From: a virus
Lineage: Duplodnaviria > Caudoviricetes
DNA length: 64,000 nucleotides
Virus record (IMG/VR): IMGVR_UViG_2513237329_000013
Span: 32,001-96,000 of that record
Reading direction: 5' to 3' (one strand)
Part shown: positions 9,735-54,734 of the stretch, one piece after another
Numbering within the stretch: the stretch's first letter is position 1
Layout of the letters: each line of letters begins with the position of its first letter
Made by a program: the position numbers and the translations under genes
Notes under the pieces: generated by a model
What the model saw: the letters and a program-made list of their open reading frames with translations, nothing else
Told to the model about the DNA's origin: nothing
Databases searched by the model: none

Positions 9735-9810
9735 TGGTGCGCCAGAAGGGATTTGAACCCTTGACTTGTCGCTTAAAAGGCGACTACTCTACCCACTGAG
9801 TTACTGACGC
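9735..9810 (-). tRNA. tRNA-Lys(UUU)
   Basis: Cloverleaf, anticodon loop CTTTTAA, 3' CCA. Confidence 0.95.
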
Positions 9811-9970
9811 TTATTCAGTTCCGGTTTGCACGGTTTCCCCACTTATTTTAACTCAGTTGGTAACTCCCATTAGAGTAGCAGTGCTTTCGGTCTGCCAGTC
9901 CGTCCGCTTTTCACGGAGGGCATACGTTCCCAATAGAAGCTCATAAAGAGCAAATTGCCATTTCTGGCTT

Positions 9971-10046
9971 TGGTGGGACAAGAAGGGATCGAACCTTCGA
10001 CGCGCAGGGCTTCAACCTGCCGCTCTTCCATCTGAGCTATCGTCCC
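9971..10046 (-). tRNA. tRNA-Phe(GAA)
   Basis: Cloverleaf, loop TTGAAGC (G37), CCA. Confidence 0.93.
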
Positions 10047-10127
10047 ATATAGAACCATTATGTATAACAAACCTTTCTATCGGAAATGCTCTTTCGTGTA
10101 AACTGATAGAAAAGGAGGCTATGCGTC

Positions 10128-10415
10128 ATGGTTGAATTTTCTCAAAGATTAAAACAACTGCGCAAAGAAAAACATTTAACTCAGGCGCAGGTTGCAGAAA
10201 GAATAGGAGTAACAGCCTCAATGGTGTCCTCATACGAAACGGACATCCGACTCCCATCCTACGAAGTTCTTGTGAAAATCGCTACGCTATTCGGCGTGAC
10301 AGTAGACTATATGCTCTGCCGTGAAGATAAAAGATTTATCGACATATCCAGTCTGTCCGATGATGAAGCTGCGGTTGTGTGTGATATGATAAACATACTC
10401 CTAAAAAAGAAGTGA
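10128..10415 (+). CDS. XRE-family HTH regulator
   Basis: Classic HTH_3 pattern, RBS AAGGAGG, antisense to the tRNA array, terminator at 10421-10444. Confidence 0.9.
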   Translation: MVEFSQRLKQLRKEKHLTQAQVAERIGVTASMVSSYETDIRLPSYEVLVKIATLFGVTVDYMLCREDKRFIDISSLSDDEAAVVCDMINILLKKK

Positions 10416-10451
10416 CTACCAGCCGTCCATTCGGGCGGCTTTTGTCATGTG

Positions 10452-10544
10452 TGGCGACGGAGGTAGGATTTGAACCCACGGACGGCTCATCACCGCCTCT
10501 TGTTTTCAAGACAAGCGCCATAAACCAGACTCGACCACTCCGCC
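10452..10544 (-). tRNA. tRNA-Ser(UGA)
   Basis: Loop CTTGAAA, long variable arm, CCA. Confidence 0.95.
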
Positions 10545-10664
10545 ATATAACTGGCTTTCATATGTATTTCAACGGGAATAGCCATACCCATCCATCCTAA
10601 GCCGCCCATATGCAGGCCAGAATCATATGATCTCGCACCTCATAAAGCGTGGTGCGACACGCTT

Positions 10665-10751
10665 TGGTGAGGGAGGTTGGATTTGAACCAACTCAGCCCG
10701 AAGGCAACGGATTTACAGTCCGCCCCAGCTCTCCAACTCTGGCGCTCCCCC
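10665..10751 (-). tRNA. tRNA-Tyr(GUA)
   Basis: Loop CTGTAAA, variable arm, CCA. Confidence 0.95.
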
Positions 10752-10786
10752 ATATAAGGCCGCATTAGCGACCATAAAAAACCACT

Positions 10787-10861
10787 TGGTACTGGCGGTG
10801 GGGATTGAACCCACGACCTTATGATTAAGAGTCATCTGCTCTTCCTCTGAGCTACGCCAGT
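10787..10861 (-). tRNA. tRNA-Lys(CUU)
   Basis: Loop CTCTTAA, CCA. Confidence 0.95.
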
Positions 10862-10868
10862 ATAAAAC

Positions 10869-10956
10869 AAGACACTTGTAAGGAAAAAGAAAGGGGTAGT
10901 GATACAATGGAGGTTGTAATAGGATGTTTCATTAAACAAATCGCTGCAAGTGTCTT
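10869..10956 (-). ncRNA. RCAGC-motif small RNA, copy A
   Basis: AAGACAC-TT-GCAGCGAT...GTGTCTT closing helix. Confidence 0.65.
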
Positions 10957-10958
10957 TT

Positions 10959-11033
10959 TGGCATGAGGTAAAGGAGTCGAACCCTTATTTACGGTTTTGG
11001 AGACCGCAGTGCTACCATTTACACCAACCTCAT
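10959..11033 (-). tRNA. tRNA-Trp(CCA)
   Basis: Loop CTCCAAA, CCA. Confidence 0.95.
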
Positions 11034-11038
11034 ATATG

Positions 11039-11115
11039 TGGCGACGTATACGGGACTTGAACCCGTGACCTCCGGCGTGACAGGCCGGTGTTCTACTCTT
11101 CTGAACTAATACGCC
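11039..11115 (-). tRNA. tRNA-Asp(GUC)
   Basis: Loop CTGTCAC, CCA. Confidence 0.95.
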
Positions 11116-11117
11116 AT

Positions 11118-11360
11118 TTATTTATCCCAATCTACAAGAGGGTATAAGTCATATGGACTATCGGCAGTTGCGATCTTCTCAAAACCACCATCAACAATGC
11201 ACCATAATGTGTGCTTGTGTTTTTCTGGATTCTGAGAAATGCAATATTCCTTTCCAGATCTGGTCTTGCATAAAACGCCAGTTCCACAATCTGATGCTGG
11301 AATTTTCTTTACAACCTTTCGTTCTTTATCAACTGATAATAAACTTGCTTTTCGCGGCAT
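11118..11360 (-). CDS. Hypothetical protein
   Basis: 80 aa, RBS GAGGTG, fills a tRNA spacer. Confidence 0.7.
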   Translation of the reverse strand: MPRKASLLSVDKERKVVKKIPASDCGTGVLCKTRSGKEYCISQNPEKHKHTLWCIVDGGFEKIATADSPYDLYPLVDWDK

Positions 11361-11380
11361 AGTTTACACCTCTTTCGTGC

Positions 11381-11457
11381 TGGTGATGCGTAAGGGATTT
11401 GAACCCTTAAATTCCGCCGTGAAAGGGCGGTGACTCTACCAATTCGTCCAACGCACC
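11381..11457 (-). tRNA. tRNA-Glu(UUC)
   Basis: Loop CTTTCAC, CCA. Confidence 0.95.
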
Positions 11458-11470
11458 ATAATATAAACTG

Positions 11471-11716
11471 TCATACTCTGACATATCCAGGTTTCATTCT
11501 ACCAGTACAGACATCATGAACCTTACCTATATGATATTTCGCACCGCTTTTATCAACGGCGACACAAAACACGGCTTTCCGATCATTTGGAAACTTCACA
11601 GAATATGACCCATCCGTTTCAAGATATATCGGAATTGGAAAATAATCAGATATTGCACGAGCTTTCTGACGAGCCTCTTTTAATGAAGCGAGTCCCTTCA
11701 TTTTCTTTCTCTTCAT
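11471..11716 (-). CDS. Hypothetical protein
   Basis: 81 aa, RBS AAGGA, fills a tRNA spacer. Confidence 0.6.
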   Translation of the reverse strand: MKRKKMKGLASLKEARQKARAISDYFPIPIYLETDGSYSVKFPNDRKAVFCVAVDKSGAKYHIGKVHDVCTGRMKPGYVRV

Positions 11717-11732
11717 AGATTCTCATTCCTTA

Positions 11733-11807
11733 TGGCTGGGGTAGTTGGACTCGAACCAACGATACGGGAGTCAAAGTCCCGTGCCTTAACCACTTGGCTA
11801 TACCCCA
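11733..11807 (-). tRNA. tRNA-Gln(UUG)
   Basis: Loop CTTTGAC, CCA. Confidence 0.95.
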
Positions 11808-11816
11808 ATATTGATT

Positions 11817-11893
11817 TGGTACGCCAGACAGGACTTGAACCCATGACCTAAAGATTAGAAATCTTTTGCTCTATCCGATTGAGCTACTGGCGC
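11817..11893 (-). tRNA. tRNA-Arg(UCU)
   Basis: Loop TTTCTAA, CCA. Confidence 0.95.
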
Positions 11894-11896
11894 ATA

Positions 11897-11983
11897 TGGT
11901 GCTGGCGGTGGGACTTGAACCCACACGGTATCTCTACCAACGGATTTTGAGTCCGTCGCGTCTGCCGATTCCACCACGCCAGC
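11897..11983 (-). tRNA. tRNA-Leu(CAA)
   Basis: Loop CTCAAAA, variable arm, CCA. Confidence 0.95.
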
Positions 11984-11996
11984 ATATTTTAATTGC

Positions 11997-12061
11997 AGAG
12001 CGCCTTGTTTGGCTGATCAGTTAAAAGTTGATTCCATAAATAAGGTTGCTGTATGCGCTCT
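11997..12061 (-). ncRNA. RCAGC-motif small RNA, copy B (Lys-UUU anticodon mimic)
   Basis: AGAGCGC-AT-ACAGCAAC...ATCAA-CTTTTAA-CTGAT...GCGCTCT. Confidence 0.75.
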
Positions 12062-12064
12062 TCG

Positions 12065-12147
12065 TGGTACGGGTAACAGGAATCGAACCTGCACGGTTGC
12101 CCACCAGATCCTAAATCTGGCGCGTCTGCCAGTTCCGCCATACCCGC
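12065..12147 (-). tRNA. tRNA-Leu(UAG)
   Basis: Loop TTTAGGA, variable arm, CCA. Confidence 0.95.
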
Positions 12148-12156
12148 ATATTTCCC

Positions 12157-12310
12157 ATCGCAATTATATAGCCGTCGCCATACAACAAGAGATGCGACCA
12201 TCTCATACGACAGGTTATATTCCACTTGGTTCTACATTCACTGACGGGCTGTGGACTACCGTGAGATTACCAACTCTCAAAAGGTTCGACGATTATTGAA
12301 TGCCTGCGAT
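12157..12310 (-). ncRNA. Putative ~150-nt structured RNA
   Basis: Closing helix ATCGCA/TGCGAT, internal hairpins; shares ordered motifs with 50292-50442. Confidence 0.45.
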
Positions 12311-12364
12311 CATAGCATTTCTCCAAACCAATTTGTCAAGTAGAGATGTCACAAATGTTCGGAG

Positions 12365-12441
12365 TGGAGTGGATAGCGGGATTTGAACCCGCACAGTCTG
12401 CTTGGAAGGCAGAAATGCTTGCCGTTAAACATCATACCCAC
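12365..12441 (-). tRNA. tRNA-Gly(UCC)
   Basis: Loop CTTCCAA, U73, CCA. Confidence 0.95.
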
Positions 12442-12492
12442 ACAAAGAAGACAATCATTTTTTAGAGTCTTAGTTGTCTTAATAATGACTCG

Positions 12493-12569
12493 TGGTGTCC
12501 CGTGACGGAATCGAACCGCCGACCTCCTGCTTGTAAGGCAGATGCTCTAACCTGCTGAGCTAACCGGAC
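12493..12569 (-). tRNA. tRNA-Val(UAC)
   Basis: Loop CTTACAA, CCA. Confidence 0.93.
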
Positions 12570-12729
12570 AAATAGGCCAATTCAAGGCATTGGCCTTGCC
12601 TCCAACTCTATGCTGTTGGGTCGCAGCAAGGTTTTACTCTAAAATCTTGCAAAAAGTCATCACTGCCAGACATGACGGTTTCATTCCCACTACGGTTTAT
12701 AGAGTAACCACCTCTTATGTGGACGGGCA

Positions 12730-12804
12730 TGGGGGCGGAGGTTGGATTTGAACCAACGACCACCAGCTTATGAGGCTGGTAAGCTACCACTGCTACACTC
12801 CGCT
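12730..12804 (-). tRNA. tRNA-Met(CAU), initiator-like
   Basis: Loop CTCATAA, A1-C72 mismatch, fMet-like D arm. Confidence 0.88.
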
Positions 12805-12869
12805 AAGTAAAATTGGCGCTGTCATCCATTCAGACAGTCATTAAGTCGCAGTACGTTGTGACACCAATA

Positions 12870-12944
12870 TGGCTGGAACGATAGGACTCGAACCTACAAC
12901 CCTCCGATTAACAGTCGGATGCTCTACCATTGAGCTACGAACCA
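12870..12944 (-). tRNA. tRNA-Asn(GUU)
   Basis: Loop CTGTTAA, CCA; two U-U mismatches in the acceptor stem. Confidence 0.9.
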
Positions 12945-12955
12945 ATATTCTCACC

Positions 12956-13038
12956 GAGACGCAACATCATTTACACCCAATAGATAAAATCAAACTCATC
13001 TTTTATGTATAGAAATTTGAAGTTGCTGTAAGCGTCTC
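12956..13038 (-). ncRNA. RCAGC-motif small RNA, copy C
   Basis: GAGACGC-TT-ACAGCAAC...GCGTCTC. Confidence 0.7.
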
Positions 13039-13048
13039 TAACAACTGC

Positions 13049-13110
13049 AAGGCACTTATGTACTTTCTATTATCCGCAAGAAAATCCTCCAAAGTTGCTG
13101 CGTGTGCCTT
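13049..13110 (-). ncRNA. RCAGC-motif small RNA, copy D
   Basis: AAGGCAC-AC-GCAGCAAC...GTGCCTT. Confidence 0.7.
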
Positions 13111-13113
13111 TTA

Positions 13114-13189
13114 TGGTCTGAGTAGCTGGTCTCGAACCAGCGACCTCGTGATCCCAAATCACGCGCTCTACCTACTGAGCTATACCCAG
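13114..13189 (-). tRNA. tRNA-Pro(UGG)
   Basis: Loop TTTGGGA, CCA. Confidence 0.95.
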
Positions 13190-13199
13190 ATTTGCTTTT

Positions 13200-13251
13200 G
13201 AGAGAATCAGTAAAAGCAGCATCGCCACGAGCAGGCTTCTCTCCTGATGCC
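13200..13251 (-). ncRNA. Minimal HDV-like (theta-type) self-cleaving ribozyme
   Basis: P1 GGCATC/GATGCT (G1-U wobble), P2 GAGAGAA/TTCTCTC, P3 GCC/GGC, L3 TGCTCGT, J4/2 CTGA; abuts the tmRNA 3' end. Confidence 0.8.
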
Positions 13252-13252
13252 G

Positions 13253-13667
13253 TGGAGCAGAGGGGAATCGAACCCCTGTCCGAAATTCCTACATGAACAA
13301 AACATTCTTACGCAATAGATAACAATTTGCATTTTGTCCTAAGACGAGCTGCGTGGTGCTATCAACCAGCTCAGAGCCGCACCAGTTTTGCGACCTCCAC
13401 CACCTTATTTCTTTTCACAGTGATAAGGAAAACTGCAATGTCAGTCTGATTCTTTATTACCGCAGATGCTTACCCAGACTAAAAGTGCATCGTTTAAGCA
13501 TTCATCAACTGCAATTAAGCAGCAATACCCTCCATAACAGCATACAGAGCGGGATGAATCATAACCACAATAGAATCGTTGTCATTTCATTTTTGTTTGA
13601 GCCTTAGGCGGTCTCCATACCTGCGTATTTCGTCCTATCAAAACCCCGTCGAACCCATTACTGCCCC
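13253..13667 (-). ncRNA. ssrA: tmRNA
   Basis: 5' GGGGCAGTAATGGGTTCGAC, 3' T-arm GGTTCGATTCC, acceptor with G3-U70, tag ORF ending IAA-stop; CCA not encoded. Confidence 0.95.
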
Positions 13668-13680
13668 ATATTTAATTTTA

Positions 13681-13756
13681 TGGTCGGAGTAGAAAGAGTC
13701 GAACTTTCGACCTCACGATTATCAGTCGTGCGCTCTACCTACTGAGCTATACTCCG
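13681..13756 (-). tRNA. tRNA-Ile(GAU)
   Basis: Loop CTGATAA, CCA. Confidence 0.95.
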
Positions 13757-13871
13757 AAATAGACCATGCGTCCGTAGAACCTCGTCTGCAGCAGATAGGT
13801 TTTTAGCTGGAATAGCAGTCAAGTAATGAACTGAACCGCACAAACGCCAACATAACCAACATGGCACGATT

Positions 13872-13947
13872 TGGTGGAAACAATGAGAATCGAACTCACG
13901 ACCTCCTGCTTGCAAGGCAGGCGCTCTCCCAACTGAGCTATGTCCCC
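13872..13947 (-). tRNA. tRNA-Ala(UGC)
   Basis: Loop CTTGCAA, G3-U70, CCA. Confidence 0.95.
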
Positions 13948-13991
13948 ATGTAACCGTCCTCTTTCGAGGACGGATTTTATTTGATTTGAGA

Positions 13992-14807
13992 TTAGGAGCT
14001 AAAAGCGGGGGCGAGGCCAAAAGAACCCCTGGCGTCGCCGGTGCCCGCGTTGCCGTTCGCGGACACACCGCAGAAGGTGCCGCTGGCGTCGTAGCACGGA
14101 GAACGCAACAGGTTACAACGACGATTTCCGTCATCATCTTCCTTATAGTAAGGAACATCCTCTTGCTTATAATATTCGTACCAATGCCCCTCGCCAGGCA
14201 TCGAATAGAAACAACGACCATACAGCTCTTTCTCGCTCTTGAGCCAAATCTTACAAACGCTCTTGATAATTTCCTTACTGCAATCGCCAGCGCTTGTAAG
14301 TTTAACAACCGGCTTAATAATTGCCTGCAACTCATCAGAGCAAAGAGAGAAGAACTCCGTATCCAGCCTACGTCTTACAACAGAAGCTTCATATCCGCCG
14401 CAATTCGTACTTTCGTCGTTCCACGACCAGTCCTCGTTGTAAACTCTGACCATATCCCAAGAGAGAGGTGCTTTTCCAGTCCCATCAGCAAGATCATCAT
14501 GGTTAAATCCGATAATCTGCCACACAGCAACAAATCCGTTCTTCATGTGGTCTTTCTTTTGTGCGCCAAGCGCAAATACTTCACGCGCCTTACCAGACAA
14601 TCCGATCTGATCAATTTCACCCCAAGAAAGATGGTTCAAATCCTTCAAAGGCATTGCAAGCGGCGCTTTACAAACAGTGTCAACAATATGTTCACTCGCC
14701 AAGCTATCATCGAAACTGAGAGTCACAGCATCGCCATCACAGACGATATTCATTGCCGAAAATTTGCTAAGATCCTTTGTTGCAATTTTGAACTGCATGA
14801 AACACAC
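13992..14807 (-). CDS. DUF6273-like C-type-lectin-fold protein, putative DGR target
   Basis: IIGFNHD...N.GGY..S...LRSP...FC.V..NG....A...FG.APAF pattern; NNC-rich 3' variable-region-like segment. Confidence 0.75.
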   Translation of the reverse strand: MCFMQFKIATKDLSKFSAMNIVCDGDAVTLSFDDSLASEHIVDTVCKAPLAMPLKDLNHLSWGEIDQIGLSGKAREVFALGAQKKDHMKNGFVAVWQIIGFNHDDLADGTGKAPLSWDMVRVYNEDWSWNDESTNCGGYEASVVRRRLDTEFFSLCSDELQAIIKPVVKLTSAGDCSKEIIKSVCKIWLKSEKELYGRCFYSMPGEGHWYEYYKQEDVPYYKEDDDGNRRCNLLRSPCYDASGTFCGVSANGNAGTGDARGSFGLAPAFSS

Positions 14808-14841
14808 CCCTATAAAAATTATTTTGCTAATTCCTTAGAAA

Positions 14842-15472
14842 GAAAATTCAATACTTGAATCATACCTATCATTGAGCCTTCGCTCTACCTCCATTACCTT
14901 CTCACAATGTTCAGCCACCAGGGAGATAAGTCTGAGCTTCAAGGAGCGACCTTTAACTTCTTACCCCAGCCTTACACAGCGAACTGTATTAGGCCAATTC
15001 CTGCGCGGGATTGTTTACCCGCAAATTTCACCGTTCGTTCAGAAAATTTGATAGTTTCATACAATTTCTTTTTCATCATATCGTATTAAAGATCAAACAC
15101 CAAAACTGTCCTACGGCTACTTTAACCGACGACTTTCGTTATAGTCGAGTTTCTTCGACATCAAGACAGGAGCGCATTGTTGGCATTTCCTCTGGTTGTA
15201 CTGGTTGCCACGCCAGTATCCTTGAGGATTATTCTCCACAGGAGCGTCTATTGCTGCGCCCGAAAGTTCCGTGCTTTTTGTAGCGATAACTCTTGGCAAC
15301 ACACATTTTCGTTGGCAGTTTCCGCCTCCCAGCAATACATCACTGCATCACTGCCGTCTGGACAATAAAAGGTATCCCTCGTAAATCCAGCGGGAACTAT
15401 TGTGCGTCTCGGAGTGCTGACACACTTTATTCACCGAGTTAATCATAAGCATGATTCAAATATTGAATTTTC
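14842..15472 (-). ncRNA. Large ornate ncRNA, probably ROOL family
   Basis: ~630 nt with no convincing ORF; 28-bp terminal helix needing G-U pairs on the minus strand; phage tRNA-array context. Confidence 0.7.
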
Positions 15473-15480
15473 AAAGATCA

Positions 15481-15556
15481 TGGAGCTGGCGACAGGACTT
15501 GAACCCGCAACCTGATGATTACAAATCACCTGCGCTACCAATTGTGCCACGCCAGC
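15481..15556 (-). tRNA. tRNA-Thr(UGU)
   Basis: Loop TTTGTAA, CCA. Confidence 0.95.
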
Positions 15557-15589
15557 ATATTGTTTAACTATGTCCTCTTGACATTATTG

Positions 15590-15618
15590 AGTATAACATA
15601 TAAGCACACGGTTGTCAA
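15590..15618 (-). promoter_or_regulatory. SigmaA-type promoter of the tRNA island
   Basis: TTGACA-17 nt-TATACT. Confidence 0.75.
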
Positions 15619-15648
15619 TAGGAATTAGCAAAATAATTTTAGATTTTT

Positions 15649-15724
15649 TGGTGGCTGAGGCTGGACTTGAACCAGCGTCTCCGCTTTATGGGAGCGGCAA
15701 GAAAACCAGCTTCTCCACTCAGCC
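15649..15724 (-). tRNA. tRNA-Met/Ile2(CAU)
   Basis: Cloverleaf, loop CCCATAA (atypical C33), CCA. Confidence 0.85.
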
Positions 15725-48643: not shown

Positions 48644-49543
48644 ATGAGAAAGAATGGTTTTGTTGGTGCTATCGTTTTGGCGATCATCATTTTTGGCGGC
48701 GTGATTCTCGGTTTTAGCTGTACATCGCGTGTCCCTACCGGTTATGTCGGAGTCGTTTATAATATGAACGGCGGCGTTGATGGTGAGGTTCTGAGTCAGG
48801 GCTGGCATCTTGTAGCGCCTACAAAGAAAGTAACCACCTATTCTATCGGTTTGGAGCAGTCCTACCTTACAAGCGAGGAAAAGGGTGACTCTCCGAACGA
48901 TGAGAGCTTTTCCATTCCGACGTCCGATGGCAAGACTGTTCGTGTAAATCTTGAGTTCTCTTACAGATTTGACGAAGAGCGTGTTGCTGAAACATTTACG
49001 ACTTTCAAGGGCAAGTCTGGAGAACAGATTAAGGATACATTTATTAAGCCTAAGATTATTGCGTGGACGCAGGAGGTTTCTGCAAATTACCCCGTCACTG
49101 ACATCTTTGGCGATAAGCGTACTGAAATCAATGCTGAGTTGGACACCTATTTGCGTGATAAGTTCGATAAGTACGGCATTATTATCGACACAGTAAACTT
49201 CACTGATATCAGTGTAGATGATGAAACCGCCGCCGCAATTCAGAAGAAGGTCACTGCGCAGCAGGAACTTGAACTGGCTAATATCGAGGCTCAGACTGCC
49301 AAGGTTCAGGCCGAAAAGGATCGTCAGGTTGCTGAAATCAACGCTGAGAAGCAGATCATTGATGCAAATGCGAAGGCTGAGGTAACGCGCATTGAAGCAG
49401 AAGCAGAAGCTCAGGCAAACCGTGAGATTGCCGCATCCCTCACCCCAAATCTGATTGAGAAGATCAAGTACGAGCGCTGGAATGGTGAGCTTCCTACCGT
49501 ATCTGGTTCTGGAGCAATCGTCAGTATTGACGGCGTTGACTGA
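48644..49543 (+). CDS. SPFH/prohibitin (Band 7) protein
   Basis: N-terminal TM, VPTGYVGV, AEAEA repeats, WNGELP. Confidence 0.9.
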   Translation: MRKNGFVGAIVLAIIIFGGVILGFSCTSRVPTGYVGVVYNMNGGVDGEVLSQGWHLVAPTKKVTTYSIGLEQSYLTSEEKGDSPNDESFSIPTSDGKTVRVNLEFSYRFDEERVAETFTTFKGKSGEQIKDTFIKPKIIAWTQEVSANYPVTDIFGDKRTEINAELDTYLRDKFDKYGIIIDTVNFTDISVDDETAAAIQKKVTAQQELELANIEAQTAKVQAEKDRQVAEINAEKQIIDANAKAEVTRIEAEAEAQANREIAASLTPNLIEKIKYERWNGELPTVSGSGAIVSIDGVD

Positions 49544-49556
49544 TCGGAGGATATGA

Positions 49557-49841
49557 ATGAAAAATAAGGTTCGTGATATCCTTGCGGATAAGAAAGTGAA
49601 GCTGCAAGAATTGACTGCACAGGCAGAAGCGGCGGTTGATCTTGTAACGAGAACAATTTCTGGTTTGGAGCTTGTCAACCAAGAAATTGATGACACGGTT
49701 GCAGAAATTGACAAGTATTCTGCTGAGCTTGCGTGTACGCGAGTGGAGCTTAGCAAGAATCGTACACACAATGCTGCGATCATTGCAAATTTTGCAAGAC
49801 TTCTGGAAGTTCCGGAAACAGAAAGTCAGCCAGTAGCCTAA
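49557..49841 (+). CDS. Coiled-coil hypothetical protein
   Basis: RBS GGAGG. Confidence 0.7.
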   Translation: MKNKVRDILADKKVKLQELTAQAEAAVDLVTRTISGLELVNQEIDDTVAEIDKYSAELACTRVELSKNRTHNAAIIANFARLLEVPETESQPVA

Positions 49842-49853
49842 TAGCTACTTGTA

Positions 49854-49909
49854 ACGACGCGAACAGCAATTTTCTTACATATATTTGGGTTATATCGTAC
49901 ATGCGTCGT
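49854..49909 (+). ncRNA. RCAGC-motif small RNA, copy E (Pro-UGG mimic)
   Basis: ACGACGC-GA-ACAGCAAT...ATATA-TTTGGGT-TATAT...GCGTCGT. Confidence 0.78.
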
Positions 49910-49937
49910 GTGAAATAAAACTTGGAGGAATAACATC

Positions 49938-50117
49938 GTGAAGCTGAAGTTCAATGTTGGTGATCGTGTTTTTGATAAGAAGTACGGTCATGGTGTGGTT
50001 CAGAGAGTTGATGCTGGAAACAGCGAGTTCCCGTATCTTATCTTCTACGAAGATGGGACGAAGATCTGGTATAAGGCAAAGGGTGTAACTCTTGCCCCTG
50101 CGGAACAGCAGGATTAA
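49938..50117 (+). CDS. 59-aa Tudor/SH3-like protein (PcrA/UvrD C-terminal-domain-like)
   Basis: KFNVGDRVFDKKYGHGVV; GTG start, RBS GGAGG; not in the ORF track. Confidence 0.65.
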   Translation: MKLKFNVGDRVFDKKYGHGVVQRVDAGNSEFPYLIFYEDGTKIWYKAKGVTLAPAEQQD

Positions 50118-50127
50118 GTAAGTTAGA

Positions 50128-50184
50128 AAGACGCAAACAGCAATCTAACAAAATCAAACTTGAAATTTGACAGATAAGCGTCTT
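50128..50184 (+). ncRNA. RCAGC-motif small RNA, copy F (Ser-UGA mimic)
   Basis: AAGACGC-AA-ACAGCAAT...TCAAA-CTTGAAA-TTTGA...GCGTCTT. Confidence 0.8.
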
Positions 50185-50196
50185 GTGGTGTGATAT

Positions 50197-50287
50197 GGAG
50201 TAGTAATCCTAACTGGTAAGGAAGTAGTTTGCTAAACTACCAGTAATCGGGAACGATGTGCAGGTTCGAGTCCTGTCTACTCCGCCA
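50197..50287 (+). tRNA. tRNA-Ser(GCU)
   Basis: Loop TTGCTAA, variable arm, CCA. Confidence 0.92.
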
Positions 50288-50291
50288 ACAA

Positions 50292-50442
50292 AAGCAAGTA
50301 GACAAAGAGAAAGTCTGTTCGCAATCGAAGCCGGCAATCATTGATTATTTTGTCCGCTTTCTTCACGGTAACTGCATGGCAGGAGTGCGAATACAAAACA
50401 GATTGGGTTCTGTTGTATGGGAGCGTGGCCTATACCTTGCTT
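50292..50442 (+). ncRNA. Putative ~150-nt structured RNA
   Basis: Closing AAGCAAG/CTTGCTT; TCACGGTA and ATACAA/TTGTATGG as in 12157-12310. Confidence 0.45.
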
Positions 50443-50449
50443 GATATAT

Positions 50450-50536
50450 GCTGATGTGATGGAACTGGCATACATGGGGGACTTAAAATCCCCCGCCGAT
50501 TGTGGATTATGGGTTCGACTCCCATCATCAGCACCA
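50450..50536 (+). tRNA. tRNA-Leu(UAA)
   Basis: Loop CTTAAAA, variable arm, CCA. Confidence 0.93.
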
Positions 50537-50617
50537 GCCGTTGTGATGATCGGCTTTCATCTCCTTCTTTGTGTGACGGTGGGACAGACCACTACTGCCG
50601 TGTAAGTGCGGCATAAA

Positions 50618-50730
50618 TGAGGGCGTCTGGATGACAGCTTTAAGGTGTATCGAACGGCGGACACCTACAGCAATGTTCTTTAAGAAAACTGGAATTTTTC
50701 TGCTTGCGGGTTCGATTCCCGTAGCTCTCA
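50618..50730 (+). ncRNA. tRNA-like RNA with RCAGC insert, copy G (Ser-GGA loop)
   Basis: Acceptor TGAGGGC/GCTCTCA, T loop TTCGATT, ACAC-CT-ACAGCAAT, AGAAAA-CTGGAAT-TTTTCT. Confidence 0.7.
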
Positions 50731-50799
50731 AAGCCGTTAAATAATCTTCTCGAATTGGTGAGCAATTCACAACTTCTCTGGGAAGATGTAATAAGAAAT

Positions 50800-50910
50800 G
50801 CAGAGGTAGCTCAGTCGGTAGAGCATCAGACAAAAAATGTGCTAAGCATTAGCACTAACAGCAATGTTAAAGGAATCCGAGTGTCGGAGGTTCGAGTCCT
50901 CCCCTCTGCG
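50800..50910 (+). ncRNA. tRNA-like RNA with RCAGC insert in the anticodon loop, copy H
   Basis: Canonical acceptor, D and T arms; GTGCTAA/TTAGCAC-TA-ACAGCAAT inserted. Confidence 0.8.
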
Positions 50911-50917
50911 TCTATAT

Positions 50918-50989
50918 TCGTGTGTAACATTTACGAAAGTACACCGTGGATGCGATTGGTATATGTCAGTTCGATTCTGACCGCACGAG
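50918..50989 (+). ncRNA. Degenerate tRNA-like element
   Basis: Acceptor TCGTGTG/CGCACGA and T arm intact; D and anticodon arms aberrant. Confidence 0.5.
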
Positions 50990-50997
50990 CCTATAAT

Positions 50998-51112
50998 GCC
51001 AGGGTAGCTCAACTGGTAGAGCGCGTAATAATGCGACTTGTTAAGCCGCTTACAGCAAATTTCTTTTGGTCTGTTAAACCCGTGGTTGCAGGTTCGATTC
51101 CTGCCCCTGGCT
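50998..51112 (+). ncRNA. tRNA-Asn(GUU)-like RNA with RCAGC insert in the anticodon stem, copy I
   Basis: CG-[hairpin-TT-ACAGCAAA]-GGT-CTGTTAA-ACCCG; canonical D and T arms. Confidence 0.8.
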
Positions 51113-51198
51113 CAACGTGAATGACTGCTTAAACCATTCTAAACCGACACGACAAAAGGGTAGAAATGGTGACAGCTCGGAGAGACGGGCATCTATAT

Positions 51199-51316
51199 AC
51201 GGCAGTGGTGAAGCGGTAACACAGCAGCCATACAAATGCGAAAAGTGGATTTTCGCTAACAGCTATTTCACACTCCAAGCTGCCAATCGTAGGTTCGATT
51301 CCTACCTGCCGTTCCA
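51199..51316 (+). ncRNA. tRNA-Gly(UCC)-like RNA with RCAGC insert in the anticodon loop, copy J
   Basis: GCAGC-[GCGAAAA/TTTTCGC-TA-ACAGCTAT]-CTCCAA-GCTGC; ends U73-CCA. Confidence 0.8.
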
Positions 51317-51376
51317 CGGGTATAGAGTTGACTTTTCCGTTCAAACAGCCCCTTATAAAGTTGGTAGTAACGGTAT

Positions 51377-51440
51377 GAGACGCACACAGCAATTTGTAAG
51401 TAAAGTATTTGGCCTGATAAGCGGATTTCTTTTGCGTCTC
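51377..51440 (+). ncRNA. RCAGC-motif small RNA, copy K (Ile-GAU mimic)
   Basis: GAGACGC-AC-ACAGCAAT...TTGGC-CTGATAA-GCGGA...GCGTCTC. Confidence 0.78.
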
Positions 51441-51450
51441 GCCCCCTCCT

Positions 51451-51490
51451 TTAAGACACAAACAGCATCGAGTGTGAAATGGTGTCTTGA
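51451..51490 (+). ncRNA. RCAGC-motif minimal copy L in the DUF2828 leader
   Basis: AAGACAC-AA-ACAGCATC...GTGTCTT, 53 nt before the start codon. Confidence 0.65.
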
Positions 51491-51543
51491 AGGCTATTTC
51501 AAGCGAAAAGAAATTAGTTAAACAATTCAAGGAGGAAGTAGGT

Positions 51544-53088
51544 ATGAGTGGTTTTATGTCTGCTATGAAAAGCACTTTGAACGATGAGTTCAATGTTTCT
51601 GTTACTGAGAACGGTGCTATTGGCTATCGCACTACTGGCAAGGAACTGTTGGATCTCAACTTTGCCGTTGCATCTCTTCGTAAGGCATCTCCGAGCGATA
51701 TTGCAAATCGTTTCGTCAGAGCGTTTTTCGAGGATAAGATCACGGCAATGAAATGGCTGTTCTTTGCGCGTGATGTTCGTGGAGGTCTTGGTGAACGCCG
51801 TTTGTTCCGCATTGTGTTTCAGCGCATGGCTGAGGAAAATCCGGAATACATCATTCCGCTGCTTCCTCTCGTTCCTGAGTATGGACGCTATGATGACCTG
51901 TGGTGTTTGTTTGATACAAAGCTTGCACCTAATGTACTGAACATCATTGCGCAGCAGCTCCGCGAGGACATTCAGAACTTGAGTGATGGCAATGGTATTT
52001 CTCTTCTCGCAAAGTGGCTTCCGTCTGCGAATGCTCATTCCGCTGACGCAAAGCGTTATGCTAAGCAGATTTACAAGTTTATGGGCATTTCTGAGCGCGA
52101 CTACCGTAAGGTGCTGTCCAAGCTGCGTTCTAAGCTGGATATCGTGGAGAAGAAAATGTCCGAAAAGCGTTGGGATGAGATTGCGTATGAAGCTGTCCCG
52201 TCTCGTGCAAATCTGATTTACAACTCTGCGTTCCTTCGTAACGACGAAGATCGTCGCCGTGATTTCCTATCCCGTTTGGAAAAGGGCGAAACGAAAATCA
52301 ATGCGTCTACGCTTTTCCCGCATGACATTGTTGCAAAGTATAGCGATGGTTGGCGTGGTCTGAAGCCTACGGATAAGACGCTTGAAGCTCTTTGGAACGC
52401 GCTTCCCGATACCGTAAACGGATGCGGCAATACAATTGTTGTTGCGGATGGCAGCGGCAGTATGACCGTGAATGTTGGCGGCGGCAATGTTACTGCGCTG
52501 GCTGTGGCAAACGCGCTTGCAATTTATTTCGCAGAGCGTTCCTCTGGTCAGTTCAAGGATAATTACATTACATTTTCTGAGCGTCCTCAGCTCGTCGATT
52601 TGAGTAAGGGTAAGAATCTCCGTGAGAAGATTCAGATTGCGCTTAAACACAGCGAGGTAGCAAACACAAATATCGAAGCGGTGTTTGATCTTATCCTGAC
52701 TACGGCAAAGAAAAACAATATGGAACAGAGCGACCTTCCCGCAAACATCCTTATTATCTCCGATATGGAGTTTGACTACTGCGCAACATCGAATGGCGGA
52801 AGCCGATATACTCGTGGTAGTGTTGATTCTCGTCTGTTTGACAAGATTGCAAAGCGCTACGAGGACGCTGGGTATAAGTTACCAAGGCTTGTGTTCTGGA
52901 ATGTGAATAGCCGCACGAATACTATTCCTATTAAGGAAAACGAGATGGGAGTTGCGCTTGTAAGCGGTTTTAGCCCGAACATCGCAAAGATGGTGATGAG
53001 CGGTCAAACCGATCCGTATGAGTGCTTGCTTGAAACGCTGAACTCTGATCGTTATAAGCCTATCGGTGACGCTCTGGAAAATCAGTAA
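51544..53088 (+). CDS. DUF2828 family protein (helical domain + vWA, Ro60/TROVE-like)
   Basis: ARDVRGGLGER, YGRYDD, AKWLPS, MIDAS DGSGSM, T, SDMEFD, VFWNV; RBS AGGAGG. Confidence 0.88.
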   Translation: MSGFMSAMKSTLNDEFNVSVTENGAIGYRTTGKELLDLNFAVASLRKASPSDIANRFVRAFFEDKITAMKWLFFARDVRGGLGERRLFRIVFQRMAEENPEYIIPLLPLVPEYGRYDDLWCLFDTKLAPNVLNIIAQQLREDIQNLSDGNGISLLAKWLPSANAHSADAKRYAKQIYKFMGISERDYRKVLSKLRSKLDIVEKKMSEKRWDEIAYEAVPSRANLIYNSAFLRNDEDRRRDFLSRLEKGETKINASTLFPHDIVAKYSDGWRGLKPTDKTLEALWNALPDTVNGCGNTIVVADGSGSMTVNVGGGNVTALAVANALAIYFAERSSGQFKDNYITFSERPQLVDLSKGKNLREKIQIALKHSEVANTNIEAVFDLILTTAKKNNMEQSDLPANILIISDMEFDYCATSNGGSRYTRGSVDSRLFDKIAKRYEDAGYKLPRLVFWNVNSRTNTIPIKENEMGVALVSGFSPNIAKMVMSGQTDPYECLLETLNSDRYKPIGDALENQ

Positions 53089-53470: not shown

Positions 53471-53781
53471 TGCCAGATGTTGTTATGACGAATCATAGCG
53501 TGAAGCGAACAAAAGAAAGAATCGGACTAAGCAAGAAAATTGCCGATAAGAATGCGCAGAGAGCGCTTGAATACGGTATTACACACTCTGAGGCAAAGGG
53601 TGGTTTGTGTCGGTATCTTGATAAGCTGTATCTGTCGAATGGTAATGCAAATAATGTTCGTGTTTATCACAGATATGTATATCTCTTTCGTGGGAACACG
53701 CTTTTGACAATCATTCCATTACCAAACAAATTCTATGCTCTGGCGGACAAACTTCAAAAACAGAAAGGCGAAGTAGAATGA
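53470..53781 (+). CDS. Hypothetical protein
   Basis: TNHS..R..ER pattern, coupled. Confidence 0.7.
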   Translation: MPDVVMTNHSVKRTKERIGLSKKIADKNAQRALEYGITHSEAKGGLCRYLDKLYLSNGNANNVRVYHRYVYLFRGNTLLTIIPLPNKFYALADKLQKQKGEVE

Positions 53782-54734
53782 GGATCGTAAAAACACATAC
53801 CGGAAAAATTTATGTTGATAAGGATAAGAAACTGGAGTTTTTAACGGTTGGCGACTATGGCAAGGAAAACAATATTAAAGCAAGTTTTCTTGGTTTGAAC
53901 AAAGAAATCAATGGTGTTCGACATCATGCGGTTGACCTGGCGGATAAGTGGGTTGCTACTATCAGCACTCAGAAAGGTTGCCCGATGAATTGTCAGTTTT
54001 GTGATTGTCCGAAGTATGGATTTCACGGAAATGTATCTCGTGAAGAACTGGTTTATGAAATTGAGACAATTCTTGCAAACGAACGAGTAACACATACTAA
54101 TCGTTTCAATGTTCACTTTGCTCGTATGGGTGAACCTACATTCAACGATGCCGTTCTTCCGTTTGCTGAATTTGATTTGAAGTCGCTGGTGAATCGGTTC
54201 ATTACGGCAGACACAATTCATCCTGTTGTTTCAACTATGCTTCCGAAAGTAAATGCCAATTTGAAGTCATTCATCATGGAATGGTGTCGCATCAAGAACA
54301 GTGTGTACAGTGGAGAAGCTGGTCTGCAATTTAGCATCAACTCGACTGATCAGGCGCAGCGTAATGAACAGTTCAACGGAAAGAGCTTATCATTATCAGA
54401 AATTTCAAGTCTCGCATCTAAGCTTCCTATGCCAGTCGGTAGAAAATACACATTGAATTTTGCGGTAACGGCTGACACGATTTTGGATGCGGTGGAGCTT
54501 GGAAAGTTGTTCGATAAGGAAAAGTTTATCGTAAAAATTACGCCGATTCACCAGACAAATGCAGCCATTAAGAATGGATTTGATGTGACCACGGAATATA
54601 CCGACTACGATGTTTACCGCAAGTTTGAAGATCCGCTTGTTGCTGCTGGATGGGATGTCATTGTGTTCGTGCCGAGCGAGGAAGAAGATAGCGACCGTAT
54701 TACTTGCGGAAATGCCTTAATTTCAGATAAGTGA
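53778..54734 (+). CDS. RlmN-like radical SAM RNA methyltransferase
   Basis: STQKGCPMNCQFC, MGEP, C-terminal TCG. Confidence 0.78.
   Translation: MRIVKTHTGKIYVDKDKKLEFLTVGDYGKENNIKASFLGLNKEINGVRHHAVDLADKWVATISTQKGCPMNCQFCDCPKYGFHGNVSREELVYEIETILANERVTHTNRFNVHFARMGEPTFNDAVLPFAEFDLKSLVNRFITADTIHPVVSTMLPKVNANLKSFIMEWCRIKNSVYSGEAGLQFSINSTDQAQRNEQFNGKSLSLSEISSLASKLPMPVGRKYTLNFAVTADTILDAVELGKLFDKEKFIVKITPIHQTNAAIKNGFDVTTEYTDYDVYRKFEDPLVAAGWDVIVFVPSEEEDSDRITCGNALISDK

What the first reader, a model, noticed from the sequence alone, without database searches (positions are those of the whole stretch)
49854..53088. Candidate new ribonucleoprotein system: 12-copy helix-CRC-NN-RCAGC RNA motif plus a Ro60-like DUF2828 protein
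Seen: 12 non-coding elements share a helix strand ending CRC, exactly 2 nt, then RCAGC-WAY-like sequence. Minus-strand copies are at 10869, 11997, 12956 and 13049. Plus-strand copies are at 49854, 50128, 50618, 50800, 50998, 51199, 51377 and 51451. The helix sequence varies with compensatory changes (GACGC/GCGTC, GACAC/GTGTC, GGCAC/GTGCC, GAGCGC/GCGCTC), and every copy is on the transcribed strand, which points to an RNA-level signal. Eight copies form a cassette that ends at the start of the DUF2828 gene. Known: Ro60/TROVE proteins (helical ring + vWA MIDAS) bind Y RNAs through a conserved helix and are often linked to tRNA-like YrlA and RNA repair genes. Inference: the motif is the DUF2828 docking site, making these a Y-RNA-analogous family with interchangeable effector modules. 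I do not recognise it as a described family.
Basis: partly seen in the sequence, partly recalled or inferred. Interest (0 to 1): 0.95.

Follow-up and report, generated by a model that had tools for sequence, protein, structure and literature searches.

The report
Phage Ro60-like protein with handle RNAs
A gut-bacterium prophage encodes a protein predicted to fold like the RNA-binding ring protein Ro60, preceded by small RNAs that share one conserved "handle" joined to tRNA look-alike parts; the pairing recurs in very different phages, matched no Rfam family, and is probably an undescribed kind of Y-RNA particle.

Summary
Eleven of the 12 copies are significant hits to covariance models built mostly or wholly from other phages. 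The twelfth (50618) is a degenerate copy.

There are two architectures. In one, a 7-bp closing stem, 2 nt and ACAGCAA enclose a variable insert. The other is its circular permutation, a hairpin handle grafted into the anticodon arm of tRNA-shaped RNAs.

The handle tracks the gene. Across 74 viral loci, all 183 model hits lie on the gene's strand. Thirteen of 14 whole records with DUF2828 gave a model hit, against none of 7 without a full-length match. It occurs in phages of Clostridia, Bacillus, Listeria, Staphylococcus, Enterococcus, Mycobacterium and E. coli. Inserts often mimic anticodon stem-loops or YrlA-like permuted tRNA bodies.

No Rfam family matched and my paper searches found no description. 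Protein-RNA binding is inferred, not shown, and the function is unknown; I favour tRNA-linked counter-defence or quality control.

This scan's notes report the same system in at least 146 other genomes.

The parts
49851..49912 (+). Handle RNA, type A. Stem ACGACGC/GCGTCGT, spacer GA, then ACAGCAAT. The insert holds an anticodon-loop-like hairpin (loop UUUGGGU).
   Evidence: R1 39.2 bits, E 2.5e-6; fold; loop
50125..50187 (+). Handle RNA, type A. Stem AAGACGC/GCGTCTT, spacer AA, then ACAGCAAT. The insert holds an anticodon stem-loop mimic (UCAAA-CUUGAAA-UUUGA).
   Evidence: R1 51.8 bits, E 3.7e-9
50197..50287 (+). Ordinary tRNA-Ser(GCU) inside the cassette (context)
   Evidence: ARAGORN; Rfam tRNA 49.8 bits
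50450..50536 (+). Ordinary tRNA-Leu(UAA) inside the cassette (context)
   Evidence: ARAGORN; Rfam tRNA 52.9 bits
50618..50735 (+). Degenerate tRNA-like RNA (T arm GCGGG-UUCGAUU-CCCGU). It has the hairpin AGGUGU...ACACCU followed by ACAGCAAU. Probable decayed type B copy.
   Evidence: Sequence; fold. R2 only 12 bits, E 0.62; Rfam tRNA-Sec 17 bits, not significant.
50800..50910 (+). Type B. A tRNA-shaped RNA whose anticodon loop is replaced by 44 nt: hairpin GUGCUAA-GCA-UUAGCAC, spacer UA, then ACAGCAAU.
   Evidence: Rfam tRNA 52.6 bits with a 44-nt insert; R2 31.9 bits at 50837-50866
50998..51112 (+). Type B. A tRNA-shaped RNA with the handle hairpin (GCGACUU-GUU-AAGCCGC, spacer UU, ACAGCAAA) inserted in the anticodon arm. 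It keeps an Asn-like loop, GGU-CUGUUAA-ACC.
   Evidence: Rfam tRNA 46.8 bits; R2 38.1 bits at 51031-51060; similar RNAs in L029, L022, L013 and L027
51199..51313 (+). Type B. A tRNA-shaped RNA with anticodon stem GCAGC/GCUGC enclosing hairpin GCGAAAA-GUGGA-UUUUCGC, spacer UA, then ACAGCUAU.
   Evidence: Rfam tRNA 48.6 bits with a 49-nt insert; R2 20.2 bits at 51236-51267
51374..51443 (+). Handle RNA, type A. Stem GAGACGC/GCGUCUC, spacer AC, then ACAGCAAU.
   Evidence: R1 36.5 bits
51450..51491 (+). Minimal handle RNA, 36 nt between the stem ends. Stem AAGACAC/GUGUCUU, spacer AA, then ACAGCAUC. It ends 52 nt before the DUF2828 start codon.
   Evidence: R1 29.9 bits; not in the seed. The same placement recurs elsewhere: median gap 55 nt in 56 loci.
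51544..53088 (+). Gene for a 514-aa DUF2828 + DUF7788 (vWA, MIDAS) protein with a predicted Ro60-like ring fold
   Evidence: Pfam PF11443 and PF25043; PHROG 850 'RNA-binding protein'; AF2 pLDDT 91.2; Ro60 matches
13046..13113 (-). Handle RNA, type A. Stem AAGGCAC/GUGCCUU, spacer AC, then GCAGCAAC. It abuts the 3' end of tRNA-Pro.
   Evidence: R1 41.6 bits; sequence
12953..13041 (-). Handle RNA, type A. Stem GAGACGC/GCGUCUC, spacer UU, then ACAGCAAC.
   Evidence: R1 36.3 bits; not in the seed
11994..12064 (-). Handle RNA, type A. Stem AGAGCGC/GCGCUCU, spacer AU, then ACAGCAAC. It abuts the 3' end of tRNA-Leu(UAG).
   Evidence: R1 37.4 bits; not in the seed
10866..10959 (-). Handle RNA, type A. 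Stem AAGACAC/GUGUCUU, spacer UU, then GCAGCGAU. It abuts the 3' end of tRNA-Trp.
   Evidence: R1 24.3 bits; not in the seed

Best explanation
The window is part of a 127-kb provirus. Its nearest bacterial match is an Oscillospiraceae genome. It encodes a family of small non-coding RNAs that share one structural 'handle':
- a 7-bp helix with consensus (A/U)AGRCRC paired to GYGYCU(U/A);
- a G after the 3' strand;
- exactly 2 unpaired nt after the 5' strand;
- then single-stranded ACAGCAA.

The handle either closes the RNA (type A) or sits as a hairpin where the anticodon loop of a tRNA-shaped RNA would be (type B). In both, the same strand of the helix runs 3' into NN-ACAGCAA.

The RNAs lie in tRNA arrays and directly in front of the gene for a DUF2828/DUF7788 protein predicted to have the Ro60 fold (helical ring plus vWA/MIDAS domain).

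Inferred mechanism:
- The RNAs are transcribed with the tRNAs and the gene, and are released by tRNA-processing enzymes.
- The protein binds the handle as Ro60 binds the conserved stem of Y RNAs.
- The variable part is displayed by the particle to tRNA-recognising factors. It can be an anticodon stem-loop mimic, a tRNA body or almost nothing.
- The particle serves either as a decoy or sponge for host tRNA-cleaving defence nucleases, or as a tether for RNA decay or repair enzymes during infection.

Shown here: the RNA family, its helix, its permutation, its linkage to the gene, and the predicted Ro60-like fold. Inferred: binding, processing and the biological role.
For: Helix. In 78 DUF2828 loci, ACAGCAA occurs 362 times on the gene strand and 57 times on the other strand. 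Of the 362, 187 have a perfect 7-bp stem at spacer 2, against 8 of 362 after shuffling the downstream sequence. All 7 pairs covary in both architectures.

Linkage to the gene.
- Stem-plus-motif hits pile up just before and just after the gene on its strand: 94 in the bin -250 to 0, 35 in -500 to -250 and 40 in +1500 to +1750. Background is roughly 3-22 per bin, mostly under 12, and minus-strand bins hold 0-16, mostly 7 or fewer.
- All 183 R1 hits in 74 viral loci are on the gene's strand. All 34 in 57 bacterial-genome loci are too.
- In five whole phage genomes (955 kb), all 19 hits lie within about 2.6 kb of the gene on its strand.
- Staphylococcus, Listeria and Mycobacterium phages have 2-3 copies abutting the gene. 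E. coli phage momo has two by eye.
- Records with DUF2828 gave an R1 hit in 13 of 14 cases. Records without a full-length match gave none in 7.
- From the motif alone, 14 of 34 stem-closed matches have DUF2828 in the same short locus on the same strand, against 1 of 49 stemless matches. Seven of 9 further records carry the gene elsewhere.

Modules. Sixty-seven of 242 type A inserts have a canonical anticodon-type loop, against 6.2 expected. Several inserts are YrlA-like permuted tRNAs with sub-threshold Rfam YrlA hits of 38-42 bits.

Permutation. Fifty-two unique hairpin handles of the form GUGUCUWG-loop-WAGACAC-NN-ACAGCAA lie in tRNA-like RNAs.

Precedent. A Thermus phage Ro60 binds two phage Y-like RNAs (PMC12135203). 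Bas63 gp130 is described as Ro60-like, lies next to tRNA genes and counters the Ppl defence (PMC11482910).
Against: - There is no direct evidence of protein-RNA binding.
- Pfam TROVE is not matched, and the profile search against PDB sequences gives Ro60 only at E 0.05-0.1. Homology therefore rests on predicted structure.
- The handle lacks the GNCGAAN0-1G Ro-binding motif of bacterial Y RNAs.
- Four of this provirus's copies lie about 38 kb from the gene on the other strand. In some genomes the copies lie 4-30 kb away. Linkage there is at genome level, not always operon level.
- Expression evidence is weak. One metatranscriptome has contigs over the gene and over 51025-51222 only, and DNA carry-over cannot be excluded.
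- R1 missed the E. coli phage copies, so model-based counts are lower bounds.
- Many DUF2828-positive records were also sources of the seed.
Confidence: 0.65

Rival explanations
1. The handle is recognised by some other factor, such as a host RNase, PNPase, a tRNA-processing or modifying enzyme, or another phage protein. On this reading its association with DUF2828 only reflects residence in the same tRNA-linked gene module.
For: - Copies abut tRNA 3' ends in the window.
- Four copies lie 38 kb from the gene. In G014 and G015 the copies lie 4-30 kb from it.
- Host PNPase binds phage Y-like RNAs directly in the Thermus system (PMC12135203).
Against: - Five tRNA-carrying phage genomes without a full-length DUF2828 match (985 kb) have no hit.
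- Phages with few nearby tRNA genes still have handle RNAs abutting the gene. Examples are Staphylococcus SEP9 and Mycobacterium phage Nicholas.
- The last copy usually sits 20-70 nt before the gene (36 of 56 loci).
Confidence: 0.15
2. The elements are mainly cis-acting leader or spacer structures. On this reading they act as autoregulatory operators or processing and stability signals for the DUF2828 mRNA and the tRNA transcript, not as free-standing RNAs.
For: - The proximal copy lies a median 55 nt upstream of the start.
- No promoter-like or terminator-like site on the + strand separates the cassette from the gene.
Against: - Copies also lie downstream of the gene and in remote tRNA arrays.
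- Many carry elaborate tRNA-like bodies or anticodon mimics that a leader would not need.
- The handle is also grafted into tRNA-shaped RNAs with open acceptor stems.
Confidence: 0.08
3. The inserts in the tRNA-shaped RNAs are small introns or processing tags. On this reading they are removed to give working tRNAs, with DUF2828 (and RtcB where present) acting in splicing.
For: - The inserts sit in the anticodon arm of RNAs that score 47-53 bits as tRNA.
- RtcB lies beside the gene in a fecal phage contig and in a Listeria phage.
Against: - Removing the insert from 50800-50910 or 51199-51313 leaves no canonical 7-nt loop with U33 (sequence).
- Eight of the 12 copies are not in tRNAs at all.
- RtcB is absent from this provirus and from all but 2 of the loci screened.
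Confidence: 0.05
4. The copies are DNA-level repeats, such as a miniature mobile element, a recombination site or a protein-binding inverted repeat, with no function as RNA.
For: They are short inverted repeats present in many copies per genome.
Against: - Strand bias is absolute relative to the gene (183 of 183 and 34 of 34).
- Stems covary while their sequence drifts.
- Arm spacing ranges from 3 nt to more than 100 nt, yet the single-strand geometry (helix end, 2 nt, ACAGCAA) is kept. That fits a folded single strand, not a duplex site.
- The inserts carry tRNA-type modules.
Confidence: 0.03

Closest known systems
Ro60 (Rsr) with Y RNAs: bacterial and phage YrlA, YrlB and Yrn1 (Rfam RF02553; Chen et al. 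2014, PMC4201824)
   Same: - A ring-plus-vWA protein is encoded next to, and on the same strand as, one or more small RNAs.
- The RNAs have a closing stem formed by their ends, with conserved nucleotides at the inner end of the 5' strand and in the adjoining unpaired stretch.
- They also have a variable module that in YrlA is a permuted tRNA-like body (T arm, acceptor hairpin, D arm).
- Such bodies occur inside the handle in other phages: L050, L201 and L200.
   Different: - The protein belongs to Pfam DUF2828/DUF7788, not TROVE. It shares 11-16% identity with Ro60 in the structural alignments.
- The conserved RNA element is helix-NN-ACAGCAA rather than GNCGAAN0-1G.
- Rfam YrlA scores 21-42 bits against a threshold of 69.
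- Copy number is high (12 here).
- Many inserts are anticodon stem-loop mimics or minimal forms.
- The handle is also found circularly permuted inside tRNA-shaped RNAs.
Thermus phage phiLo Ro60 with Yrl1 and Yrl2 (PMC12135203; PDB 9KOP, 9L5Y)
   Same: - It is a phage-encoded Ro60-fold protein with phage-encoded partner RNAs just upstream of its gene.
- The authors propose a role in escaping host defence through host PNPase.
   Different: - The phiLo protein is a TROVE-domain protein.
- Its RNAs carry the CGAA motif in a stem-bulge-stem.
- Binding there is shown by EMSA and cryo-EM. Here binding is only inferred.
Bas63 gp130, a Ro60-like counter of the Ppl defence system (PhageMaP preprint, PMC11482910)
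   Same: - It is described as Ro60-like in structure and as lying directly upstream of the tRNA genes of an E. coli phage.
- The authors speculate that some of those 'tRNAs' are Y RNAs.
- In the Felixounavirus momo I find a DUF2828 relative in that position. I also find two handle RNAs in its tRNA array, one with a permuted tRNA body.
   Different: - That work names no RNA partner or motif.
- I did not examine Bas63 itself, so whether gp130 is the DUF2828 protein is not tested here.
tRNA (Rfam RF00005)
   Same: Three window RNAs have acceptor, D and T arms and score 47-53 bits as tRNA.
   Different: The 7-nt anticodon loop is replaced or interrupted by 44-55 nt carrying the handle. ARAGORN does not call them.

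Membership tests
Ro60 / TROVE proteins | Ring of helical (HEAT-like) repeats followed by a vWA domain, matched over the full length | tested here: met
Ro60 / TROVE proteins | MIDAS motif (DxSxS...T...D) in the vWA domain | tested here: met
   D302, S304, S306, T375 and D407 are invariant in 65 homologues. Pfam VWA_2 matched weakly, 22.7 bits.
Ro60 / TROVE proteins | Sequence match to Pfam TROVE (PF05731) | tested here: not met
   Only DUF7788, DUF2828 and VWA_2 were reported at E <= 0.01. The family profile reaches Ro60 chains only at E 0.05-0.1, in the vWA part.
Ro60 / TROVE proteins | Binds Y RNA on the outer ring surface and misfolded RNA ends in the central hole | not testable with these tools
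   Needs EMSA, CLIP or a structure of the complex.
Y RNA / YrlA (RF02553) | Encoded close to the Ro60-type gene, on the same strand | tested here: met
   with the caveat that the partner gene is DUF2828, not TROVE.
Y RNA / YrlA (RF02553) | Closing stem carrying the Ro-binding motif GNCGAAN0-1G | tested here: not met
   The conserved element is helix-NN-ACAGCAA. No such motif appears in the family consensus.
Y RNA / YrlA (RF02553) | Score at or above Rfam's gathering threshold (69 bits) | tested here: not met
   The window's best is 21.3 bits. Related loci reach 41.7, 37.9, 27.7 and 25.4 bits.
Y RNA / YrlA (RF02553) | tRNA-like module (T arm, acceptor hairpin, D arm) attached to the stem | tested here: met
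   Permuted bodies lie inside the handle in L050, L201, L200, L074 and L029. In the window the same parts occur in the opposite permutation (type B). Many members lack it.
tRNA (RF00005), for the three type B RNAs | Cloverleaf with acceptor, D and T arms above Rfam's threshold | tested here: met
   52.6, 46.8 and 48.6 bits against a threshold of 29.
tRNA (RF00005), for the three type B RNAs | Seven-nucleotide anticodon loop on a 5-bp stem | tested here: not met
   There are inserts of 44, 55 and 49 nt at the loop. ARAGORN does not report these RNAs.

The most novel reading that the evidence does not exclude
The DUF2828 protein and its handle RNAs form a modular display particle for the phage-host conflict over tRNA. 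On this reading each phage carries a set of handle-tagged anticodon stem-loops (Lys-UUU-like most often) and tRNA bodies. The ring protein holds them out as decoys for host anticodon nucleases, or as tethers that bring repair or decay enzymes to damaged tRNAs. That would make it a second, independently elaborated Ro/Y-RNA system, widespread in phages of Firmicutes, Actinobacteria and Proteobacteria.
Probability: 0.3. Interest if true: 0.9.

Novelty: new variant of a known kind. Interest (0 to 1): 0.78.

Why it matters
Ro60 and Y RNAs are studied in human autoimmunity and in bacterial RNA quality control, yet few partner RNAs and functions are known outside animals and a handful of bacteria.

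Here a very large protein family gains a candidate RNA partner with a simple, searchable signature:
- at least 7,000 cluster representatives in the metagenomic library match the protein;
- 711 GenBank phage records carry it;
- PHROGs already labels it 'RNA-binding protein'.

The RNAs are modular and often mimic anticodon stem-loops or whole tRNA bodies. This links the family to the current question of why phages carry tRNA arrays and how they resist tRNA-cleaving defences.

Members occur in tractable phages of E. coli (Felixounavirus), Listeria, Staphylococcus, Bacillus and Mycobacterium. Binding and knockout tests are therefore straightforward. One relative is already reported to counter a defence system.

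The handle also explains unannotated gaps in phage tRNA arrays, and 'tRNAs' with long inserts that tRNA finders skip.

Tried and rejected
- Rfam. The gathering scan of the window and permissive scans of 49780-51560 and six related loci gave no family for the handle. YrlA reached only 21-42 bits, below its threshold.
- tRNA-intron reading. Rejected, because excision leaves no canonical anticodon loop, and most copies are not in tRNAs.
- General RtcB or RNA-repair linkage. RtcB is adjacent only in L008 and in the Listeria phage. PF01139 is absent from the provirus.
- Local GNRA-type hairpin formed by ACAGCAAU. It is not conserved across copies (by eye).
- Single-sequence AF2. It gave pLDDT 43 and was unusable. 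It was replaced by the alignment-based model.
- Nucleotide search of GenBank phages. It found only tRNA similarities, with no close relative.
- The look-up of encoding contigs.
- Chen 2014 supplementary tables. They are not held, so I could not see which 22 phages had YrlA.
- Literature. Searches for DUF2828, Ro-like RNA binding protein, YrlA with phage, Ro60-like with phage, and ACAGCAA with phage and tRNA found no description of this RNA family.
- Expression. Only assembled contigs were available, from one true metatranscriptome. Uncovered parts of the cassette cannot be interpreted.
- R1 gave no hit in E. coli phage momo, although two copies are visible by eye.
- L091 (GVMAG contig) could not be searched as a whole record.

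Full report
**What is in the window**

The window is part of a 127,251-base provirus record. A 98%-identical DUF2828 gene lies in an Oscillospiraceae genome bin.

On the minus strand, 9735-15724 holds 21 tRNA genes, a tmRNA and a ROOL RNA.

On the plus strand, 49850-51500 is non-coding. It holds two ordinary tRNAs (Ser-GCU, Leu-UAA) and three sequences that Rfam scores as tRNA at 47-53 bits but that carry 44-55-nt inserts at the anticodon loop.

It is followed at 51544-53088 by a 514-aa gene matching Pfam DUF2828 and DUF7788 (vWA) and PHROG 850, 'RNA-binding protein'.

**The observation**

CRCNNRCAGC occurs 17 times, against 6.6 +/- 2.4 expected. Twelve of these lie in the two RNA arrays, all on the strand of the neighbouring tRNA genes.

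The copies fall into two architectures.

- Type A has eight copies: 49851, 50125, 51374 and 51450 on the plus strand, and 13046, 12953, 11994 and 10866 on the minus strand. It is a 7-bp stem formed by the two ends, 2 nt, RCAGCNAY, then 12-65 nt of variable sequence.
- Type B has three clear copies at 50800, 50998 and 51199, plus a degenerate one at 50618. It is a tRNA-shaped RNA in which a 7-bp hairpin ending CRC, 2 nt and ACAGCWAT sit in the anticodon arm.

**Relatives**

The protein family is very large. At least 8,000 word-index hits and 7,057 cluster representatives match it, and 711 GenBank phage records carry it.

The same RNA element stands beside the gene in distant phages, seen first by eye:
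- Bacillus phage Nate and Enterococcus phage VRE9_4;
- a human-fecal phage contig, where RtcB lies between the RNAs and the gene.

I then fetched 80 IMG/VR loci at 44-98% protein identity.

A simple scan for a 7-bp stem, NN and RCAGC gave these counts on the gene's strand:
- 94 hits in the 250 nt before the gene;
- 35 in the 250 nt before that;
- 40 just after the gene.

Background on that strand is roughly 3-22 per bin, mostly under 12. Minus-strand bins hold 0-16, mostly 7 or fewer.

**Models and tests**

R1 was built from 74 type A elements.
- It finds exactly the eight type A copies in the window and in the whole provirus (24-52 bits; next best 11.6).
- It finds 183 hits in 74 viral loci, all on the gene's strand.
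- It finds 34 hits in 57 bacterial-genome loci, all on the gene's strand and 33 of them upstream.

In whole genomes the hits cluster at the gene:
- in five phage genomes (955 kb), all 19 hits lie within about 2.6 kb of the gene on its strand;
- Staphylococcus phage SEP9 has three tandem copies right after it;
- Mycobacterium phage Nicholas has two after it;
- a Listeria phage has two before it.

Thirteen of 14 DUF2828-positive records gave a model hit. The exception is E. coli phage momo, which has two copies visible by eye. None of 7 records without a full-length DUF2828 match gave a hit, and five of those are tRNA-carrying phages totalling 985 kb.

The reverse search started from the bare pattern AAGACACNNACAGCAA in IMG/VR.
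- Of 34 matches with a closing stem, 14 have DUF2828 in the same short locus on the same strand.
- Of 49 matches without a stem, 1 does.
- Seven of 9 further stem-bearing records carry the gene elsewhere. The two that do not are 33% and 80% complete.

Selecting elements by their stem makes stem statistics circular, so I also tested ACAGCAA sites chosen without regard to pairing.
- There are 362 on the gene strand and 57 on the other.
- Of the 362, 187 have a perfect 7-bp stem at spacer 2.
- Shuffling the downstream sequence leaves 8.

**The permutation**

In type B the hairpin reads GUGUCUWG-loop-WAGACAC-NN-ACAGCAA.
- This is the type A 3' strand with its trailing G, joined by 3-8 nt to the type A 5' strand.
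- The D arm leads into the strand that is 3' in type A.
- ACAGCAA leads towards the T arm.
- That is the same connectivity as in the handle-closed, YrlA-like permuted tRNAs of other phages.

R2 was built from 32 such hairpins of other phages, and all 7 of its pairs covary. It ranks the window's three type B handles first, second and third in 64 kb.

A duplex DNA site would not survive a change of arm spacing from about 4 nt to over 100 nt. A folded single strand would.

**Modules**

Of 242 unique type A elements, 67 contain a 5-bp hairpin with a 7-nt loop of anticodon type (Y-U-NNN-R-N), against 6.2 expected. UUU is the commonest triplet, with 14 cases. The CGA class is really T loops.

Twenty-three carry a T-loop motif. 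Several are complete permuted tRNA bodies that Rfam's YrlA model reaches at 38-42 bits, below its 69-bit threshold.

The window shows:
- Pro-like and Ser-like loops in 49851 and 50125;
- an Asn-like loop retained in 50998-51112;
- a minimal 36-nt element just before the gene.

The proximal element lies a median 55 nt from the start in 56 loci. No promoter-like or terminator-like site splits the cassette from the gene.

**The protein**

With a 65-sequence alignment, AF2 gives pLDDT 91.2.
- Foldseek's 13 best PDB matches are all Ro60/TROVE proteins.
- The MIDAS residues are invariant.
- Sequence methods alone do not establish the link.

**Reading**

The best-supported explanation is a Ro60/Y-RNA-like particle, in which the handle is the protein's docking site and the insert is what is displayed.

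Precedents are the Thermus phage Ro60 that binds two phage Y-like RNAs (PMC12135203) and Bas63 gp130. The latter is described as Ro60-like, lies beside tRNA genes and counters Ppl (PMC11482910).

Binding, processing and role remain inferred. RNA evidence is limited to contigs of one metatranscriptome over the gene and 51025-51222.

**Novelty**

No Rfam family and no paper in the searchable library describes the handle. The protein's Ro-likeness is already reflected in phage annotations such as 'Ro-like RNA binding protein'.

Notes of this scan report the same system in at least 146 other genomes, and for the minus-strand copies of this provirus. I reached my conclusions from my own tests.

Noticed in passing
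window 9735-15724 (-): A dense RNA-gene array holds 21 tRNAs, a tmRNA (13250-13667, 86.5 bits) and a ROOL RNA (14855-15462, 394 bits). Four handle RNAs lie between the tRNAs.
   Followed up: partly
window 48644-49540 (+): A Band 7/SPFH gene lies just upstream of the RNA cassette. Relatives at 26-100% identity lie within a few kb of DUF2828 in 21 other fetched loci. Mycobacterium phage Nicholas has a 'Band7-like' gene 48 upstream of its DUF2828 gene.
   Followed up: partly
window 50943-50997 (+): An orphan T-arm-like hairpin (GUCAG-UUCGAUU-CUGAC) lies between two type B RNAs. Together with the next D arm it gives a weak YrlA match (21.3 bits, E 0.17). It may be a remnant of a permuted tRNA body.
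   Followed up: no
window 50998-51112 and L029:3587-3706, L022, L013, L027: In one conserved group of type B RNAs the handle is inserted into the 5' strand of the anticodon stem. An Asn-like loop (GGU-CUGUUAA-ACC) is retained, so these may still present an anticodon.
   Followed up: partly
L091:157-714 (-): Three tandem stem-closed handle RNAs (50-51 nt) lie at the end of a 15.6-kb contig labelled as a giant-virus bin (GVMAG). No DUF2828 lies in the 11.3 kb held, and the record could not be searched.
   Followed up: partly
G005:C1:204505-205995, G011:C1:4126-5622, G014:C1:2091-3593: The DUF2828 matches in three large viral records contain 1-2 in-frame TAA codons. This could be match overrun, a broken gene or stop-codon recoding.
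   Followed up: no
L200:7268-7495: E. coli phage momo (Felixounavirus) has two handle RNAs in a gap of its tRNA array, 0.9-1.1 kb after its vWFA/DUF2828 gene. One has a full permuted tRNA body. R1 missed both.
   Followed up: yes
window 53778-54731 (+): An ORF of 318 aa downstream of the DUF2828 gene has a weak radical SAM match (25.7 bits, below the cut-off).
   Followed up: no
MT774378.1 32965-33219 (record W11): The crAss-like phage cr106_1 has only a partial, weak match to the DUF2828 profile (30.5 bits, positions 245-331, in a 479-aa frame). It has no handle RNA.
   Followed up: no
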